IMG/VR virus record: IMGVR_UViG_2802429242_000002
Span: 1 to 5,028 of that record
Direction: 5' to 3' (one strand)
DNA: 5,028 nucleotides
DNA from: a virus
Taxonomy: Duplodnaviria > Heunggongvirae > Uroviricota > Caudoviricetes
Shown here: positions 121-5,028 of the stretch, in pieces
Numbering within the stretch: the stretch's first letter is position 1
How the letters are laid out: every line of letters starts with the position of its first letter
The notes under the pieces: model-generated
What the model was told of the DNA's origin: nothing
The model's input: only the letters and a program-made list of their open reading frames with translations
Database searches by the model: none
Made by a program: the position numbers and the translations under genes

Positions 121-1269
121 TCATTTGCGCCCCCTTACCTCTGAAGGGTTCAGCGACAAATTTATGAGGCAGGCCAGCGCCGAAGCATCATTAATATAGT
201 CATATAAGCTAACAGCCAGCGGAGATTCGGCTTTTGCCAACATAGGATAAAGCTGCTGCAGCCAGACCTGATGAATTGATGAAATGTAGGAACAGAGAAC
301 GCTGGCGTTATGTGCAACGTCGCTCGGTACAGCGGGCTTTGAAAGCTGTTTCTCCATCTGGTTAAAGGCATTGATGTATGCCTCTTTGAACTGGGCAGCA
401 CGTTTACCCGTGAAACCCATAGCAAGAAACGCAAAGCCGTCGCGGGTTATTTGATAGCAAGGTAGTTTGCGGCCTGTGCAATCGGTGTAATCACTCACCG
501 AAAAATTGCGGGCAGTGAATGATGCGGAACATTCAAGCGTGCGGATCTTTTTCAGTACATCGTCATGACGTTTGGAGAAGAAGTTGGCAACAGCCAGGGA
601 TGAAGTAACAGCCTGACCATCAACGATGGCAATTTCAGGTTGAGTGAGGGTTGGGATCGTAGCCATGATGACAGCCTCCGATAACAGTGAATTACCTTCA
701 CCACCGGAAACGCCAATTTCGCTGGTGGTGAACTGAACGGGGTTGGCGTAACCGGCGTTATCGGAAACCGGCGCACCTTTCGGTGCCCCCGTCCAGCCCA
801 CCATAATTTGGGTGTGCGCAGACGCAGACGATAAAAAAAACGCTGGCGCGTCATATATCGCCGATAACATTTCCAGGACGCCAATCCCGGCACCCGCTTT
901 ATAAGGTGCCTGAACAGTGTAACGTCCCGGAATGGCAGAATCAATGTGCTGGTGGTCCTTCACACTCAACAAAATCACGCCTGAATTTCCACAAAGGACT
1001 AAAGCACTCATGCGGGTAGTCTTTGCGAAGATAGATAACGCGCTGTGTTTCTGGCTCCCAACGAATAACATGAACATAAAGTCCTCTTCCGTCACGAAAC
1101 CAGCGGTTAAGTTCCTGCACAACTCGCCCCCCACAGTCAGGTAAAGTTCTCTGTGGTTACTTACAGGCAGGTGATTTGGTAATCTGCATTCATGCCGTAA
1201 CAACAGGTGTTCAGCCACGCGGACCACCAGCTGTTGCGACCAACGGTTATTTGCCGTTAAACTGTTCAT
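121..1269 (-). CDS. Rha-family phage regulatory protein (antirepressor-like), with a ~200-aa N-terminal region of unknown function
   Basis: 382-codon ORF. Residues ~205-305 (TLTQPEIAIVDGQAVTSSLAVANFFSKRHDDVLKKIRTLE ... YQITRDGFAFLAMGFTGKRAAQFKEAYINAFNQME) match the Rha-family signature as I recall it (KRHDnVLr ... TRDGF..LvMGFTG..A.qFK.aYI..FN.ME). Start ATG 1267-1269 overlaps the upstream gene's stop as ATGA (stop 1266-1268), with GGAG 10 nt upstream. The N-terminal half uses E. coli-like codons (CCG, GGT, ACC, GAA, AAC) and its other frames look like shadow ORFs. Alternative internal start ATG at 664-666 (M202) has a strong GGAGG SD 8 nt upstream and would give a 181-aa Rha-only protein. 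Confidence 0.6.
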   Translation of the reverse strand: MNSLTANNRWSQQLVVRVAEHLLLRHECRLPNHLPVSNHRELYLTVGGELCRNLTAGFVTEEDFMFMLFVGSQKHSALSIFAKTTRMSALVLCGNSGVILLSVKDHQHIDSAIPGRYTVQAPYKAGAGIGVLEMLSAIYDAPAFFLSSASAHTQIMVGWTGAPKGAPVSDNAGYANPVQFTTSEIGVSGGEGNSLLSEAVIMATIPTLTQPEIAIVDGQAVTSSLAVANFFSKRHDDVLKKIRTLECSASFTARNFSVSDYTDCTGRKLPCYQITRDGFAFLAMGFTGKRAAQFKEAYINAFNQMEKQLSKPAVPSDVAHNASVLCSYISSIHQVWLQQLYPMLAKAESPLAVSLYDYINDASALACLINLSLNPSEVRGRK

Positions 1270-1850
1270 GCGTTAGTTTCTCCACAACCAGAAGCAATCG
1301 ACGCCACGACGCCCGGAGCTGCACACTCGCGGGCGTTACTCTTTTCCGGCGCACAAAAAACACGAAATAACAGTGTTAAATGCTCCTGCCACTTCGCCAT
1401 TACTTGGTAGCTGTTCTCTTCGATTTGCTCACGCTCAGCCTGATCAATAACTCCATCAGCAGTTGCCTTGCGTAAGTACTGGGAATGCTTGCCAATCCAT
1501 TCTATTGACTCCATCAGCCGCTGATTAATGTCACCATTGTCAATGTCATCAATGACCACCAGCGGCACAAACACCCCATTACTACGACGGGCTATTGCAT
1601 CCGTTACATGCCTGGTACCACTGGCATCCTGTAAAACCATGGCCCACTCGAGTGGAAAAATTTGATCCCCACCGCTACGCAGTCTGTTATGCAATTGATC
1701 TTTTGCTGGGGTGATATCATCAGATTTATACAAACCAAGAATTTCTGCTGCTTCCTCATAGCCATGAGGTAAATCAGCAATCGTTCTTCGTATTGCTGCC
1801 ACCAGCCATGCTGGTTGTTTATCAACTTTCCATTCAGGTTCTTTACCCAC
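1266..1850 (-). CDS. CII-like / YdaT-like early regulatory protein
   Basis: Follows the Cro-like gene on the same strand, the position of lambda cII and Rac ydaT. I favour a GTG start at 1848-1850, with GAGGAA SD 6 nt upstream and a 28-nt gap after the Cro-like stop. The track ORF extends to ATG 1961, but that start and the in-frame ATGs at 1928/1925 lack an SD and would overlap the Cro-like gene by 47-83 nt. The DQLHNRLRSGG stretch loosely resembles what I recall of YdaT-family proteins; family assignment is from memory and position only. Confidence 0.55.
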   Translation of the reverse strand: MGKEPEWKVDKQPAWLVAAIRRTIADLPHGYEEAAEILGLYKSDDITPAKDQLHNRLRSGGDQIFPLEWAMVLQDASGTRHVTDAIARRSNGVFVPLVVIDDIDNGDINQRLMESIEWIGKHSQYLRKATADGVIDQAEREQIEENSYQVMAKWQEHLTLLFRVFCAPEKSNARECAAPGVVASIASGCGETNA

Positions 1851-2997: not shown

Positions 2998-3360
2998 ATG
3001 AAATCTGAACTATTTCATAGCGAAGCAAATTCAGAAATTATCACCGCAGATGAGTTTATTGATTTCATAAACTCTTTCAAAAAGCCTTTAATTTGCCAAA
3101 TTTGCGGAAATCAATCATGGAGTGTAGTCGGTACTCTAGAACTTGAAGTTGAAGACAATCAGCCAAAACATCACGTAATCGAAGTTCTCAGCTATGCCCA
3201 ATACAAACCTGAAACTGATAGCGCTATAAATTATCCTGGTGGTATGCCGCTGTTTCGAATCACCTGTGATCACTGTGCACATGTACTTCTTTTTTCTTAT
3301 AAAAAAGCTAGATCATTGATCCAAAAAAGAAAAAATGAAAAAGAAGAGGATGGGAAATGA
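2998..3360 (+). CDS. Hypothetical small zinc-ribbon protein (two CxxC pairs), cargo gene downstream of repressor
   Basis: 120 aa with Cys33/Cys36 (CQIC) and Cys90/Cys93 (CDHC). AAAGGA SD 8 nt upstream of ATG 2998. Lysine-rich acidic tail. Markedly AT-rich (about one third G+C by hand count of 3001-3060, against about half in 601-660). I recognise no family. Confidence 0.7.
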   Translation: MKSELFHSEANSEIITADEFIDFINSFKKPLICQICGNQSWSVVGTLELEVEDNQPKHHVIEVLSYAQYKPETDSAINYPGGMPLFRITCDHCAHVLLFSYKKARSLIQKRKNEKEEDGK

Positions 3361-3989
3361 CGCGACCTTATCTCAGAGCAGTACCAAACTGTGGATCTGG
3401 TATTGATAAGTGTGACCTTTACCCCAATGTTAAGAACAGGCTGCGCGTCGGTATAGAAGAAATGTATACTGATTTTATCGAATCCGCAGATGAAACTTAC
3501 AAAACTGATGGGGGAAATAAAATGTCATCAGTTAGTCGAGAAGAAATTCAAGCACTTTTAGCTGCCAATAAAGCAGAAATGGAGTCCATTGCATCCTCTA
3601 TTAGAGTTGAAATGGCTTTATCTCGCGAGAACACAAACGTTCAGCTAGCATCTCTAAATTCAGCCATCAATTCTATCTCTTCGAAAATCGAAGGCAAAAT
3701 GGACAGTGTTGACGGGGATGTGAAGGCCATCAATGGTAGATTCGAAGGTATACAAGGCCAAATTACTGGAATAAATACAGCCATTAGTGGTATTCAATCT
3801 GGAATTTCTACCAGACTTGCTATTTTTGGAGTTATCATTGCGGTCATAGTTGCATTACCTAGCATAATTTCTGCTTTTAAAGATACTTCGCCAGTAGTTC
3901 AACCAGTTACACAACAACCAAGTGTTAAACATCTCAACCAAGAACCAATTACTCCACAAGTATTACCTCCGCAGGGAAAAGCAAACTAA
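3357..3989 (+). CDS. Hypothetical coiled-coil protein with single C-terminal transmembrane helix and proline-rich tail
   Basis: ATG 3357 overlaps the upstream stop as ATGA, with GAGGA 6 nt upstream. Alternative start ATG 3522 (M56) has GGGGGA 6 nt upstream. Residues ~60-150 are heptad-like and Ser/Ile/Gly-rich; hydrophobic segment LAIFGVIIAVIVALPSIISAF (~154-174); tail rich in P, Q and V. Architecture resembles small phage membrane proteins such as XhlA-like or exclusion proteins, by resemblance only. Confidence 0.65.
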   Translation: MTRPYLRAVPNCGSGIDKCDLYPNVKNRLRVGIEEMYTDFIESADETYKTDGGNKMSSVSREEIQALLAANKAEMESIASSIRVEMALSRENTNVQLASLNSAINSISSKIEGKMDSVDGDVKAINGRFEGIQGQITGINTAISGIQSGISTRLAIFGVIIAVIVALPSIISAFKDTSPVVQPVTQQPSVKHLNQEPITPQVLPPQGKAN

Positions 3990-4012
3990 ACCGGCTTTAT
4001 GCCGGTTTTTTT
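3989..4012 (+). terminator. Rho-independent terminator after the cargo cassette
   Basis: AACCGGC-TTTAT-GCCGGTT hairpin immediately after the TAA stop (3987-3989), followed by a run of seven T (4006-4012). Confidence 0.8.
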
Positions 4013-4113
4013 CTATACAAACGCCCCCTCTTTGTCTTGAATCACATCACAACACATTTAAAAAACATTTTAAATTCAAAGCATTAAACGCATCAACGCA
4101 TATCAAACAAATT

Positions 4114-4130
4114 ATCTACTTTTAGTTGTT
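4114..4130. promoter_or_regulatory. Operator O_L2-like 17-mer ATCTACTTTTAGTTGTT (weaker half-site)
   Basis: CTAC half-site at the conserved position, second half GTTG instead of GTAG. Centre lies 23 bp from O_L1, the same spacing as O_R1 to O_R2. Overlaps the -35 of the PL-like promoter. Confidence 0.35.
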
Positions 4131-4157
4131 GATTTTTGCTACTTTTGGTAGCAGAAT
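4129..4157 (+). promoter_or_regulatory. PL-like early promoter (-35 TTGATT, 17-bp spacer containing operator, -10 CAGAAT)
   Basis: Matches the PR-like element at 2169-2197 at 22 of 29 positions in the same promoter orientation. Located downstream of the repressor cassette terminator and upstream of plus-strand small ORFs, as for lambda PL/OL. Confidence 0.45.
4137..4153. promoter_or_regulatory. Operator O_L1-like 17-mer TGCTACTTTTGGTAGCA
   Basis: 6-bp perfect inverted arms TGCTAC/GTAGCA. Same family as the O_R sites. Lies in the spacer and -10 of the PL-like promoter. Confidence 0.5.
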
Positions 4158-4361
4158 TGTTTTAACAACAACGAACAGGCAGGACGCCCACGAAGTAGCC
4201 GCCTGGGGCATATGAAGTCCAGGATGATTCGTTGAGTCATGTTGTGCCACTAGGCACTCATGTTAAAGCAGGTGTATGAAATGAAAGTCCAGATTTTAAA
4301 CAATAACTGTGAAGTCGTTTAGGCGTAAAACATGACCGCGCGTAGACCAAGGGAGGAAAAA

Positions 4362-4538
4362 GTGGGAATAGTTAGAAATCAAGCAGATATATTGAAAATC
4401 AGCTCTGAATTGCTTGGAGTTTTGAAAAGTGAGCTCACCGCACATGGCATCGAGCCCACTGACGAAAATTTAAGTTGGGTTTTGTCGATTATTCAACAAT
4501 CACTCAAGCCCAGCCTCAGCAAACTTTTTATCGAGTAG
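4362..4538 (+). CDS. Hypothetical small protein, first ORF of the putative PL-like transcript
   Basis: Strong SD AAGGGAGG with a 5-nt spacer to GTG 4362 (58 codons). The track ORF starts at ATG 4332 (68 aa) with only a weak AGG upstream. I see no arginine-rich N-type motif and recognise no family. Confidence 0.4.
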   Translation: MGIVRNQADILKISSELLGVLKSELTAHGIEPTDENLSWVLSIIQQSLKPSLSKLFIE

Positions 4539-4691
4539 TGCTTCGAACTTATCGTAAAGCTTGCTTATGTCGTCTATCGGGTTTTCTGACGTACTGTAAT
4601 TTTTATCTGATGTCATGGCAGCAGTCTGATATGCAGTGTGAGTCTTAACCGATAGTTGGAATAAATAAAGAATTTTTTCTTCTTTGGTCAT
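4500..4691 (-). CDS. Hypothetical small protein (63 aa), convergent with the 4362..4538 ORF
   Basis: ATG at 4689-4691 with AAGGA 8 nt upstream; the track ORF extends to 4733. Sequence MTKEEKILYLFQLSVKTHTAYQ...KFAEAGLE. Overlaps the 3' end of the plus-strand ORF by 39 nt, so one of the two may be spurious. Confidence 0.4.
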   Translation of the reverse strand: MTKEEKILYLFQLSVKTHTAYQTAAMTSDKNYSTSENPIDDISKLYDKFEALLDKKFAEAGLE

Positions 4692-4930
4692 GACTATTTC
4701 CTTCTTGGCTATATGAAAACACCAAGATACCACCGAGCCTGAAGTGGTGAAAAGACAGGCACATAACAGCTAAGTATTTTCAACCAGAGAGAATCCTTAG
4801 CGTTGTGGTGAATGCGCAGGCTGATGCGCGAAAGACATTGCAGCTATTGCGGAAAAGAGCTGTTCGGCGGGGCAATTAAACGCCCGTGAGAGTCTGAAAT
4901 AACCGCAAGCCGGAGATCAGCACCGGTCAC

Positions 4931-4995
4931 CACAACAGCCACTGCTTTGGCGGTACCAGTTTGTACACTTGCCTCCGGCTGGTACCGCTCTTTTT
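4931..4995 (+). ncRNA. Candidate DicF-like small RNA ending in an intrinsic terminator
   Basis: The stretch CTTTGGCGGTACCAGTTTGTAC resembles the DicF segment UUUGGCGGUAUCAGUUUUAC as I recall it from the E. coli Qin prophage, and a terminator hairpin follows as in DicF. Lies downstream of the repressor in the early-left direction, as dicF does relative to dicA. Based on memory, not a search; 5' boundary is approximate. Confidence 0.3.
4949..4995 (+). terminator. Rho-independent terminator (10-bp perfect stem GCGGTACCAG / CTGGTACCGC, then TCTTTTT)
   Basis: Read directly: arms at 4950-4959 and 4979-4988, 19-nt loop, T-run 4991-4995. Confidence 0.7.
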
Positions 4996-5028
4996 ACAAA
5001 ACAGAGAAGAGCATCACCGGACGACGGG

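What the first reader, a model, noticed from the sequence alone, without database searches (positions are those of the whole stretch)
4332..4691. Convergent, 3'-overlapping pair of small ORFs just downstream of the PL-like promoter
A 58-68 codon plus-strand ORF with a very strong SD and a 63-codon minus-strand ORF with a good SD converge and overlap by 39 bp. Both cannot be fully independent. The arrangement could be a small regulatory or toxin-antitoxin-like pair, or an antisense relationship in which one strand encodes a regulatory RNA.
Basis: seen in the sequence. Interest (0 to 1): 0.45.

Follow-up and report, generated by a model that had tools for sequence, protein, structure and literature searches.

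The report
Conserved convergent prophage gene pair
The two small overlapping ORFs are both real, conserved protein-coding genes that always travel together, and they are one version of a swappable two-gene cassette just downstream of the early-left promoter of e14/SfII/SfV-type prophages; the function of the cassette is unknown.

Summary
A plus-strand ORF (B; 58 codons from GTG 4362 to 4538) and a minus-strand ORF (A; 63 codons, 4691 to 4500) converge and share 39 bp. Both are genes. In relatives down to about 40% identity (Kluyvera, Klebsiella, Edwardsiella phage EPP-1) both ORFs persist, stay convergent and overlap by 15-39 bp. Each shows third-position variation and pN far below pS in its own frame. 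Only A is annotated in RefSeq and in SfII. B is a two-helix domain that always accompanies A, with or without one of several interchangeable N-terminal modules. Neither protein matches any known family, structure or defence model. E. coli K-12 e14 has the same layout with unrelated genes (ymfJ/ymfI). A conserved ~70-nt block upstream of A precedes at least 23 unrelated small "cargo" families in IMG/VR, 17 of them with their own 3'-overlapping partner. My best reading, which is inferred, is an excludon-like cassette: A is expressed from its own promoter in the lysogen, B is made first from PL, and PL transcription and probably B protein switch A off. The idea that one strand is only a regulatory RNA is rejected, and a classical toxin-antitoxin identity is unsupported.

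The parts
4116..4159 (+). OL-like operators (4116-4128, 4139-4151) and PL-like promoter region
   Evidence: The operator motif is shared with the OR region, 8 matches against 0.8 expected. The position matches PL of SfV, e14 and a Klebsiella phage relative to the conserved leader. The hexamers themselves are weak and were not called by the scan.
4167..4330 (+). Conserved PL leader; it contains a 20-codon relic (4260-4322) of the N-terminus of SfV orf33
   Evidence: Similarity to SfII, SfV, SfIV, mEp460 and e14 starts at about 4167, roughly where the PL transcript should start. The stem CCTGG/CCAGG at 4202-4223 becomes CCCGG/CCGGG in Klebsiella and e14. The relic reads MLKQVYEMKVQILNNNCEVV*.
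4362..4538 (+). Gene B: 58 aa, GTG start, SD GGGAGG at 4351-4356; a PL-sense two-helix protein not annotated in RefSeq or SfII
   Evidence: Homologues of 58-59 aa go down to 64% identity, and further as a C-terminal domain. Against L084, pS is 0.67 and pN 0.07. Variable sites by codon position are 17/8/27 of 40 each. AF2 gives helices 7-27 and 34-48, pLDDT 80. It matches phrog_15476.
4500..4538 (.). 39-bp stretch coding on both strands (last 12 codons and stop of each gene)
   Evidence: 6 of 39 sites are variable among 7 diverged modules, against 43-44% in the flanking singly coding parts.
4500..4691 (-). Gene A: 63 aa, ATG 4691, SD AAGGA at 4704-4700; acidic helical hairpin; the 'cargo' gene
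   Evidence: It is annotated as WP_215736237.1 and SfII_36 and matches phrog_2605. 50 homologues of 58-63 aa occur across Enterobacterales. Against L084, pS is 0.44 and pN 0.08. Variable sites by codon position are 16/10/41 of 51 each. AF2 gives helices 3-27 and 38-59, pLDDT 82.
4692..4760 (-). Conserved block upstream of A. Candidate promoter: -35 TTCACC 4751-4746 and TGgTATCTT 4732-4724. Three covarying inverted repeats: 4760-4756/4741-4737, 4748-4744/4733-4729 and 4727-4722/4708-4703.
   Evidence: The block is conserved even in Edwardsiella phage EPP-1, where the proteins are about 40% identical. It precedes at least 23 unrelated cargo families. Hairpin 3 has at least 9 compensatory arm types, and 80% of 64 distinct sequences have a perfect stem of 6 bp or more against 0.8% of shuffles. 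The block core occurs in at least 854 of 5426 complete E. coli genomes.

Best explanation
A and B form a conserved two-gene accessory cassette in the early-left (PL) operon of an e14/SfII/SfV-type lambdoid prophage, arranged as a convergent overlapping transcription unit (an excludon-like layout). Shown: both are small, acidic, helical proteins under purifying selection. The B domain and A always occur together. The same slot, bounded by a conserved PL leader and a conserved ~70-nt block, holds many unrelated gene pairs built the same way, including ymfJ/ymfI of E. coli K-12 e14. Inferred: A is transcribed from a promoter in the block while the prophage is repressed, like a moron expressed in the lysogen. 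B is the first protein made when PL is derepressed or on infection. PL transcription then runs antisense through A and its promoter, shutting A down by transcriptional interference and RNA duplex formation. B protein, whose only conserved part is the A-associated domain, binds and neutralises the A protein already present. This would make B an early antidote to a lysogeny-specific function, comparable in logic to Esc against SieB. What A itself does is not known; exclusion or defence, or another function specific to the lysogen, are both possible.
For: - Coding status and linkage: both ORFs and the convergent overlap are kept in all diverged loci. pN is far below pS and variation is enriched at third positions in each frame outside the overlap.
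- Partner specificity: the B domain occurs with no extension, with a KQEP coiled-coil module, with an MEFKDLP module, with a zinc-finger-like module, or behind a YmfJ-type N-terminus (phrog_2982). In every locus I could inspect it faces an A homologue. The same rule holds for ymfI cargo, whose three different partners share only the C-terminal VYH-TMVKALRIELDGLRRKIV module.
- Architecture: at least 23 cargo families sit behind the block, 17 of them with a 3'-overlapping PL-sense ORF, overlaps 4-89 bp.
- Position: the pair lies directly after the OL/PL region and the leader.
- Promoter motif in the block: the critical -10 positions are conserved across variants. No conserved promoter is available further upstream.
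- No convincing terminator lies between the stop of A and PL, so A transcripts should cover B.
- Data from the e14 version: ymfJ RNA and protein are induced late in SOS (log2 fold change 4.8), ymfI much less (2.0) (PMC11002266). ymfI-ymfJ is listed as a convergent excludon in at least half of 58 MG1655 transcriptomes (PMC12288877).
- Both proteins are acidic and soluble, as many phage-encoded protein inhibitors are.
Against: - No transcript, start-site or protein data exist for A or B themselves.
- A-B binding is inferred only from co-occurrence, which tight physical linkage could also produce.
- The promoter hexamers score 8 of 12 and were not called by the scan.
- The covarying hairpin next to the SD overlaps the proposed -10. 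If the promoter is real, that hairpin cannot be in the A mRNA, so part of the block is unexplained.
- A has no similarity to any defence or exclusion protein.
- Six of the 23 cargo families showed no overlapping partner ORF.
- The direction of antagonism (B against A, or A against B) is not determined.
Confidence: 0.45

Rival explanations
1. The antagonism runs the other way. B, and the PL-sense partners in general, is an early host-directed or toxic protein. A, made constitutively in the lysogen, is its antidote. It would protect the lysogen from leaky PL expression by antisense transcription across B and by binding B. This is a toxin-antitoxin-like safety catch.
For: The same co-occurrence and overlap data apply. 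With no convincing terminator, A transcripts would run antisense over all of B and the PL leader. First genes of lambdoid PL operons are often toxic to the host; this rests on established knowledge of lambda kil, not on a test here.
Against: In the window B is little more than the A-associated domain (58 aa), which leaves no obvious effector part. The N-terminal modules of partners are exchanged freely between cargo types, which fits a recognition domain with variable add-ons better than a toxin. There is no similarity to any toxin or antitoxin family.
Confidence: 0.2
2. A and B are two unrelated accessory genes that happen to be packed tail to tail. The overlap and co-occurrence reflect compaction and linkage only, and they have no functional interplay beyond unavoidable transcriptional collision.
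For: Phage genomes are compact. Six cargo families lack an overlapping partner ORF. Cassettes are clearly moved as blocks by recombination in the conserved flanks, as the relic at 4260-4322 shows.
Against: Recombination joints recur inside the partner gene, just upstream of the cargo-associated C-terminal domain. In my sample they never fall between that domain and the cargo, for both the A and the ymfI families. Convergent overlaps of 11-89 bp recur in 17 unrelated families at one locus.
Confidence: 0.2
3. The conserved block acts mainly in the PL-sense RNA, as a processing, stabilising or anti-termination structure for an operon that has no N protein. The minus-strand gene is a passenger that uses whatever promoter activity the block has.
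For: Three covarying hairpins are present. In many phages the block ends a few bases before the start codon of the next PL-sense gene. A strong terminator-like hairpin lies downstream at 4949-4995. No N gene is annotated in SfII. Three of four single mismatches in hairpin 3 would be G.U pairs in the PL-sense RNA.
Against: No second copy of the block or leader exists elsewhere in SfII, so there is no putL/putR-like pair. No Rfam family matches. In the class II and L088/L221 variants the 3' arm of hairpin 3 is the SD of the cargo gene, which points to the minus-strand RNA. Folding energies are unremarkable on both strands. This rival concerns the block only and does not explain the conserved A-B pairing.
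Confidence: 0.12
4. Only one strand is a real gene. The other ORF is a by-product, and its transcript acts purely as an antisense RNA.
For: Each annotation keeps only one of the two: PGAP and SfII annotate A only, SfV annotates the PL-sense gene only.
Against: Both frames stay open from E. coli to Edwardsiella. The overlap length changes by whole codons. pN/pS is 0.04-0.27 for relatives at roughly 65-83% protein identity in the non-overlapping parts, with enrichment at third positions in each gene's own frame.
Confidence: 0.03

Closest known systems
Excludon (convergent overlapping transcription units), including ymfI-ymfJ of E. coli K-12 e14
   Same: Convergent neighbouring genes whose transcripts must overlap. 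The e14 pair occupies the same slot, with the same PL leader and the same upstream block, and is listed as a convergent excludon from RNA-seq (PMC12288877).
   Different: A and B are not homologous to YmfI and YmfJ. Here the coding regions themselves overlap, not only the UTRs. Mutually exclusive expression has not been measured for A/B.
P22/lambda SieB-Esc-sas superinfection exclusion module
   Same: A gene of the early-left region expressed in the lysogen, a phage-made protein antidote (Esc) and an antisense RNA that switches expression (PMC12197685 and PMC7067206). This is the logic I propose for A and B.
   Different: There is no sequence similarity. Esc is an internal product of sieB rather than a convergent gene. 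No exclusion phenotype is known for A.
BstA/aba and other prophage defence genes with self-immunity next to the repressor
   Same: A variable accessory locus beside the immunity region, with a built-in way to spare the resident phage (paper titles and abstracts listed).
   Different: BstA is a large protein and aba is a DNA element. No PADLOC model matches A, B or the other cargos tested, apart from one weak hit for a zinc-ribbon cargo.
Type I toxin-antitoxin pairs with convergent 3'-overlapping RNAs (txpA/RatA, bsrG/SR4; from my own knowledge)
   Same: Convergent transcripts that overlap at their 3' ends, and possible SD sequestration in the 5' leader.
   Different: Those toxins are hydrophobic membrane peptides and the partner is non-coding. 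A and B are both soluble and acidic, and both are coding.
Prophage morons / accessory loci encoded antisense to lytic genes
   Same: A small gene with an apparent promoter of its own, antisense to an early operon, in a highly variable slot. PMC7067206 describes this signature.
   Different: Here the moron-like gene comes with a cargo-specific sense-strand partner and a shared, conserved upstream block across at least 23 families.

Membership tests
Excludon | Neighbouring genes on opposite strands, convergent or divergent | tested here: met
   B is 4362-4538 on the + strand and A is 4691-4500 on the - strand; they are convergent.
Excludon | Transcripts of the two genes overlap | not testable with these tools
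   The coding regions overlap by 39 bp, so any full-length mRNAs must overlap. No RNA data exist for this pair. The e14 counterpart ymfI-ymfJ passes an RNA-seq criterion (PMC12288877).
Excludon | Expression of one unit lowers expression of the other | not testable with these tools
   No expression data. In e14, ymfJ rises 4.8 log2 and ymfI 2.0 log2 in SOS, which is not informative about exclusion.
Type I toxin-antitoxin | Small hydrophobic membrane toxin peptide | tested here: not met
   The highest 19-residue Kyte-Doolittle mean is 0.46 for A and 0.80 for B. Both are acidic, pI 5.0 and 5.2.
Type I toxin-antitoxin | Antitoxin is a non-coding antisense RNA | tested here: not met
   Both strands encode proteins under purifying selection.
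Type II toxin-antitoxin | Co-transcribed pair with members of known toxin and antitoxin families | tested here: not met
   The genes are convergent, not co-transcribed. There are no Pfam, NCBIfam or PADLOC hits, and no PDB sequence or fold match.
Type II toxin-antitoxin | One product is toxic and the other neutralises it by binding | not testable with these tools
   This needs expression and interaction experiments.
Prophage moron | Variable gene inserted between conserved phage sequences | tested here: met
   The conserved leader and block flank at least 23 alternative cargo families. The A/B module is in 63 of 5426 complete E. coli genomes and the block in at least 854.
Prophage moron | Own promoter and terminator; expressed in the lysogen | tested here: inconclusive
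   A promoter-like motif with an extended -10 is conserved, but it scores below the scan threshold. No convincing terminator was found. There are no expression data.
Lambda N / HK022 Nun or put-type antitermination at the first PL position | Arginine-rich N-terminal motif, or paired put RNAs downstream of PL and PR | tested here: not met
   The arginine-rich start exists only in the unconserved 68-aa form. There is no second copy of the leader or block in SfII and no Rfam match.

The most novel reading that the evidence does not exclude
e14/SfII/SfV-type prophages of Enterobacterales carry a previously undescribed hypervariable slot just downstream of PL. In it, dozens of unrelated small genes are each paired with a convergent, 3'-overlapping immediate-early gene whose C-terminal domain is specific for that cargo and whose N-terminal modules (including ClpX-type zinc fingers) are shuffled. 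This would be a general design in which a lysogen-expressed effector comes with an induction-triggered antidote or adaptor, under one shared regulatory block. It would be directly testable in E. coli K-12 with ymfI/ymfJ.
Probability: 0.3. Interest if true: 0.8.

Novelty: new variant of a known kind. Interest (0 to 1): 0.6.

Why it matters
Three points follow if this holds.

- **Annotation.** One gene of each pair is systematically missing from annotation: B in RefSeq and SfII, the cargo in SfV and O157. A whole set of small phage proteins is therefore under-counted.
- **Distribution.** The shared block marks a variable slot present in roughly one in six complete E. coli genomes, including K-12, O157:H7 and Shigella phages. 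The slot is filled with proteins of unknown function, arranged so that the lysogenic and lytic programmes should read opposite strands of the same DNA.
- **Function.** If the partner really neutralises the cargo, this would be a compact and widespread way for a prophage to carry lysogen-specific functions, such as exclusion or defence, and switch them off when it needs to replicate. It would also be a ready source of matched inhibitor-target pairs.

Tried and rejected
- **Family searches.** Pfam, NCBIfam and PADLOC found nothing for A or B. PHROGs gave only families of unknown function.
- **Structure searches.** Foldseek against the PDB for both models, and profile searches of PDB sequences, gave nothing significant; the best hits had E of about 1-10. 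Helical hairpins are in any case uninformative for fold search.
- **B as a ribbon-helix-helix repressor.** I considered this because of its sequence pattern. I rejected it because the model shows a long first helix with no N-terminal strand, the protein is acidic, and the hairpin variants upstream of the cargo are shared between unrelated cassettes, so they are not cassette-specific operators.
- **B as an N analogue.** Rejected, because the arginine-rich N-terminus is not conserved.
- **RNA families.** Rfam found nothing in 4000-5028 at E up to 1.
- **A put-like RNA pair.** No second copy was found in SfII.
- **A terminator for A transcripts at 4175-4191.** The scan flagged it, but folding shows only a weak 4-bp stem, so I do not count it.
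- **Formal pair counting on a MAFFT alignment of the block.** The alignment (A7) put hairpin 3 out of register and one row was mistyped by me. I did not use it and relied on the per-sequence hairpin search with shuffled controls.
- **The e14 genome paper (PMC331406).** It is not held.
- **Literature searches for this slot.** They found no description of it.

Full report
**What is there**

The window is the immunity region of an e14/SfII/SfV-type lambdoid prophage of E. coli.
- A cro-like gene lies at 2142-1879 on the minus strand.
- A cI-type repressor lies at 2249-2953 on the plus strand.
- Two further plus-strand genes follow, then a bidirectional terminator at 3988-4008.
- The 13-bp operator motif of the OR region recurs at 4116 and 4139, 8 matches against 0.8 expected. 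A PL-like promoter reading rightwards is therefore a fair description.
- From about 4167 the sequence becomes similar to SfII, SfV, SfIV, mEp460 and e14, whatever their immunity type. This is a shared PL leader.

The + ORF runs 4332/4362-4538 and the - ORF 4691-4500, and they share 4500-4538. In one sequence such a pair is only mildly unusual, occurring in 96 of 5000 shuffles.

**Both are genes**

Protein searches found homologues of each ORF. I call the minus-strand gene A and the plus-strand gene B.

Loci from Kluyvera, IMG/VR contigs, Klebsiella and Edwardsiella phage EPP-1 all carry both ORFs. They are convergent and overlapping by 39, 33, 27, 24, 23 or 15 bp, even where the proteins are only about 40% identical.

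Outside the overlap each gene evolves like a coding sequence in its own frame.
- Against L084, B has pS 0.67 and pN 0.07; A has pS 0.44 and pN 0.08.
- Among seven modules, variable sites by codon position are 17/8/27 of 40 for B and 16/10/41 of 51 for A.
- Only 6 of the 39 shared bases vary, against 43-44% elsewhere.

B homologues begin at the position of GTG 4362, behind GGGAGG. The 68-codon form is not conserved.

RefSeq and the SfII record annotate A only. All 63 complete E. coli genomes with the module show a single annotated gene there.

**The proteins**
- A (63 aa, pI 5.0) is predicted as a helical hairpin.
- B (58 aa, pI 5.2) is predicted as two helices.
- Neither has a membrane segment.
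- Pfam, NCBIfam, PADLOC, PDB sequences and Foldseek give nothing. PHROGs gives only unknown-function families.

A profile search shows that B is a C-terminal domain of about 45 residues. It occurs alone or behind different N-terminal modules:
- a KQEP coiled-coil module;
- an MEFKDLP module;
- a zinc-finger-like module;
- in phrog_2982, the N-terminus of YmfJ.

In every locus I could inspect, the B domain faces an A homologue.

**The wider pattern**

E. coli K-12 e14 has the same layout with unrelated proteins.
- PL and the same leader are followed by ymfJ (102 aa).
- ymfJ converges on ymfI (113 aa) with a 63-bp overlap.
- The same ~70-nt block lies upstream of the ymfI start.

- The block is always followed about 25-40 nt later by the start of a small gene.
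- These genes fall into at least 23 families unrelated by BLASTP, 55-163 aa.
- 17 of the families have their own PL-sense ORF overlapping the 3' end by 4-89 bp.

Partners are modular.
- The C-terminal part goes with the cargo. For example, three different YmfI partners share only VYH-TMVKALRIELDGLRRKIV.
- N-terminal modules are shared across cargo types.
- Two partners contain true ClpX C4 zinc fingers.

Other points on the slot:
- The window itself holds a 20-codon relic of the SfV orf33 start at 4260-4322, so cassettes are exchanged by recombination.
- Cassettes can be stacked in tandem.
- The block core is in at least 854 of 5426 complete E. coli genomes.

**The block**

On the minus strand, 4760-4692 contains two kinds of feature.
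- A promoter-like motif: TTCACC, a 16-nt spacer, then TGgTATCTT. The key -10 positions are kept in all variants.
- Three inverted repeats that covary. Hairpin 3, next to or including the cargo SD, has at least 9 compensatory arm types. A perfect stem of 6 bp or more is present in 80% of 64 distinct sequences, against 0.8% of shuffles.

These two readings conflict, because the -10 overlaps the 5' arm of hairpin 3. Sequences upstream of the block are unrelated between phages and are often the start of the next PL-sense gene, so no other conserved promoter is available. Hairpin variants are shared by unrelated cassettes, so they are not cassette-specific operators. I could not decide on which strand's RNA the hairpins act. 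Folding energies are unremarkable on both strands. There is no Rfam match and no second copy in SfII.

**How it most likely works**

*Shown:* two real genes that always travel together; a doubly coding overlap; their position behind PL; and a shared architecture across many unrelated pairs.

*Inferred:* A is made from the block promoter in the lysogen, and B is the first PL product. PL transcription through A and its promoter, together with sense-antisense RNA pairing, silences A. B protein binds the A protein left over from lysogeny.

Evidence that fits, from the e14 version:
- ymfJ RNA and protein rise late in SOS while ymfI changes less (PMC11002266).
- ymfI-ymfJ is classed as a convergent excludon in MG1655 transcriptomes (PMC12288877).
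- No convincing terminator separates the stop of A from PL.

I put this model at about 0.45. The rivals are:
- the reverse antagonism, with A as antidote to an early toxic B (0.2);
- no functional link beyond packing (0.2);
- a block that acts mainly in PL RNA (0.12, and this concerns the block only);
- a single real gene with an antisense RNA (0.03), which the codon evidence contradicts.

**Comparison with known systems**
- The layout is that of an excludon.
- The proposed logic resembles P22 SieB-Esc-sas and the self-immunity of prophage defence genes such as BstA.
- Antisense position and variability are those of morons.
- It is not a type I or type II toxin-antitoxin system by the features I could test, and it is not an N, Nun or put element.

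I found no description of this slot or of the A and B families in the literature held.

**Verdict**

The pair is a new variant of a known kind: a prophage accessory locus arranged as an excludon. Two features stand out. One is the cargo-specific partner domain. The other is a shared regulatory block found across a large part of the E. coli population. The function remains unknown, but it can be tested directly in K-12. Interest 0.6.

Noticed in passing
window 721-932, minus strand: Rfam finds a C4 antisense RNA (808-721, 82.8 bits), an isrK Hfq-binding RNA (909-833, 61.7 bits), and, below its gathering score (21.4 bits against 46.7, E 0.04), c4-a1b1 target sites (922-870). All lie inside a mechanical 382-aa minus ORF (121-1269) with Ash and Rha domains. 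This looks like a P1/P7-type c4-icd-ant or Gifsy isrK-type antirepressor module, so that long ORF is probably not one gene.
   Followed up: no
window 4260-4322, plus strand: Twenty codons, MLKQVYEMKVQILNNNCEVV then a stop. They equal the N-terminus of SfV orf33, the PL-sense partner of a different cassette, so this is a relic of cassette replacement.
   Followed up: yes
window 4167-4258, plus strand: The PL leader is conserved across phages with different immunity, including a Klebsiella phage and e14. The stem CCTGG/CCAGG (4202-4223) changes to CCCGG/CCGGG there. Its function is unknown and it has no Rfam match.
   Followed up: partly
window 4797-5028 and beyond (L001 6797-7085): This stretch is 98-99% identical in Stx2 phages and is unannotated. 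It contains a 12-bp stem, GGCGGTACCAGC/GCTGGTACCGCT... followed by TCTTTTT (4949-4995), inside the PL operon upstream of yfdP. It also has a boxA-like CGCTCTTTTTACAA and a 15-nt arm (4996-5010) whose inverted copy lies about 60 nt downstream. How PL transcription passes this in phages with no annotated N is unclear.
   Followed up: partly
L097 1590-1793; partners in IMG/VR loci: ClpX C4-type zinc fingers (PF06689, 37-42 bits) occur as the N-terminal module of several PL-sense partners. One also occurs as a stand-alone gene just upstream of B in some E. coli prophages.
   Followed up: partly
L220 866-1944: Two convergent cassettes lie in tandem: 866-1099(+)/1077-1310(-), then 1501-1779(+)/1765-1944(-). 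The second is a zinc-finger-like B-domain protein facing an A homologue.
   Followed up: yes
window 2998-3989, plus strand: Two genes sit between cI and the terminator at 3988-4008, in the position of lambda rexAB. They match phrog_4293 (120 aa) and phrog_5820 (210 aa). The second gives weak, below-threshold Pfam matches to coiled-coil-type families, has a hydrophobic stretch near its C-terminal end, and gives a weak MakE-like hit.
   Followed up: no
L219 (SfV) about 1510-1755; L223 (O157:H7): In SfV and in an O157:H7 prophage only the PL-sense gene of the cassette is annotated and the convergent cargo ORF is missing. In SfII and RefSeq E. coli it is the other way round.
   Followed up: partly
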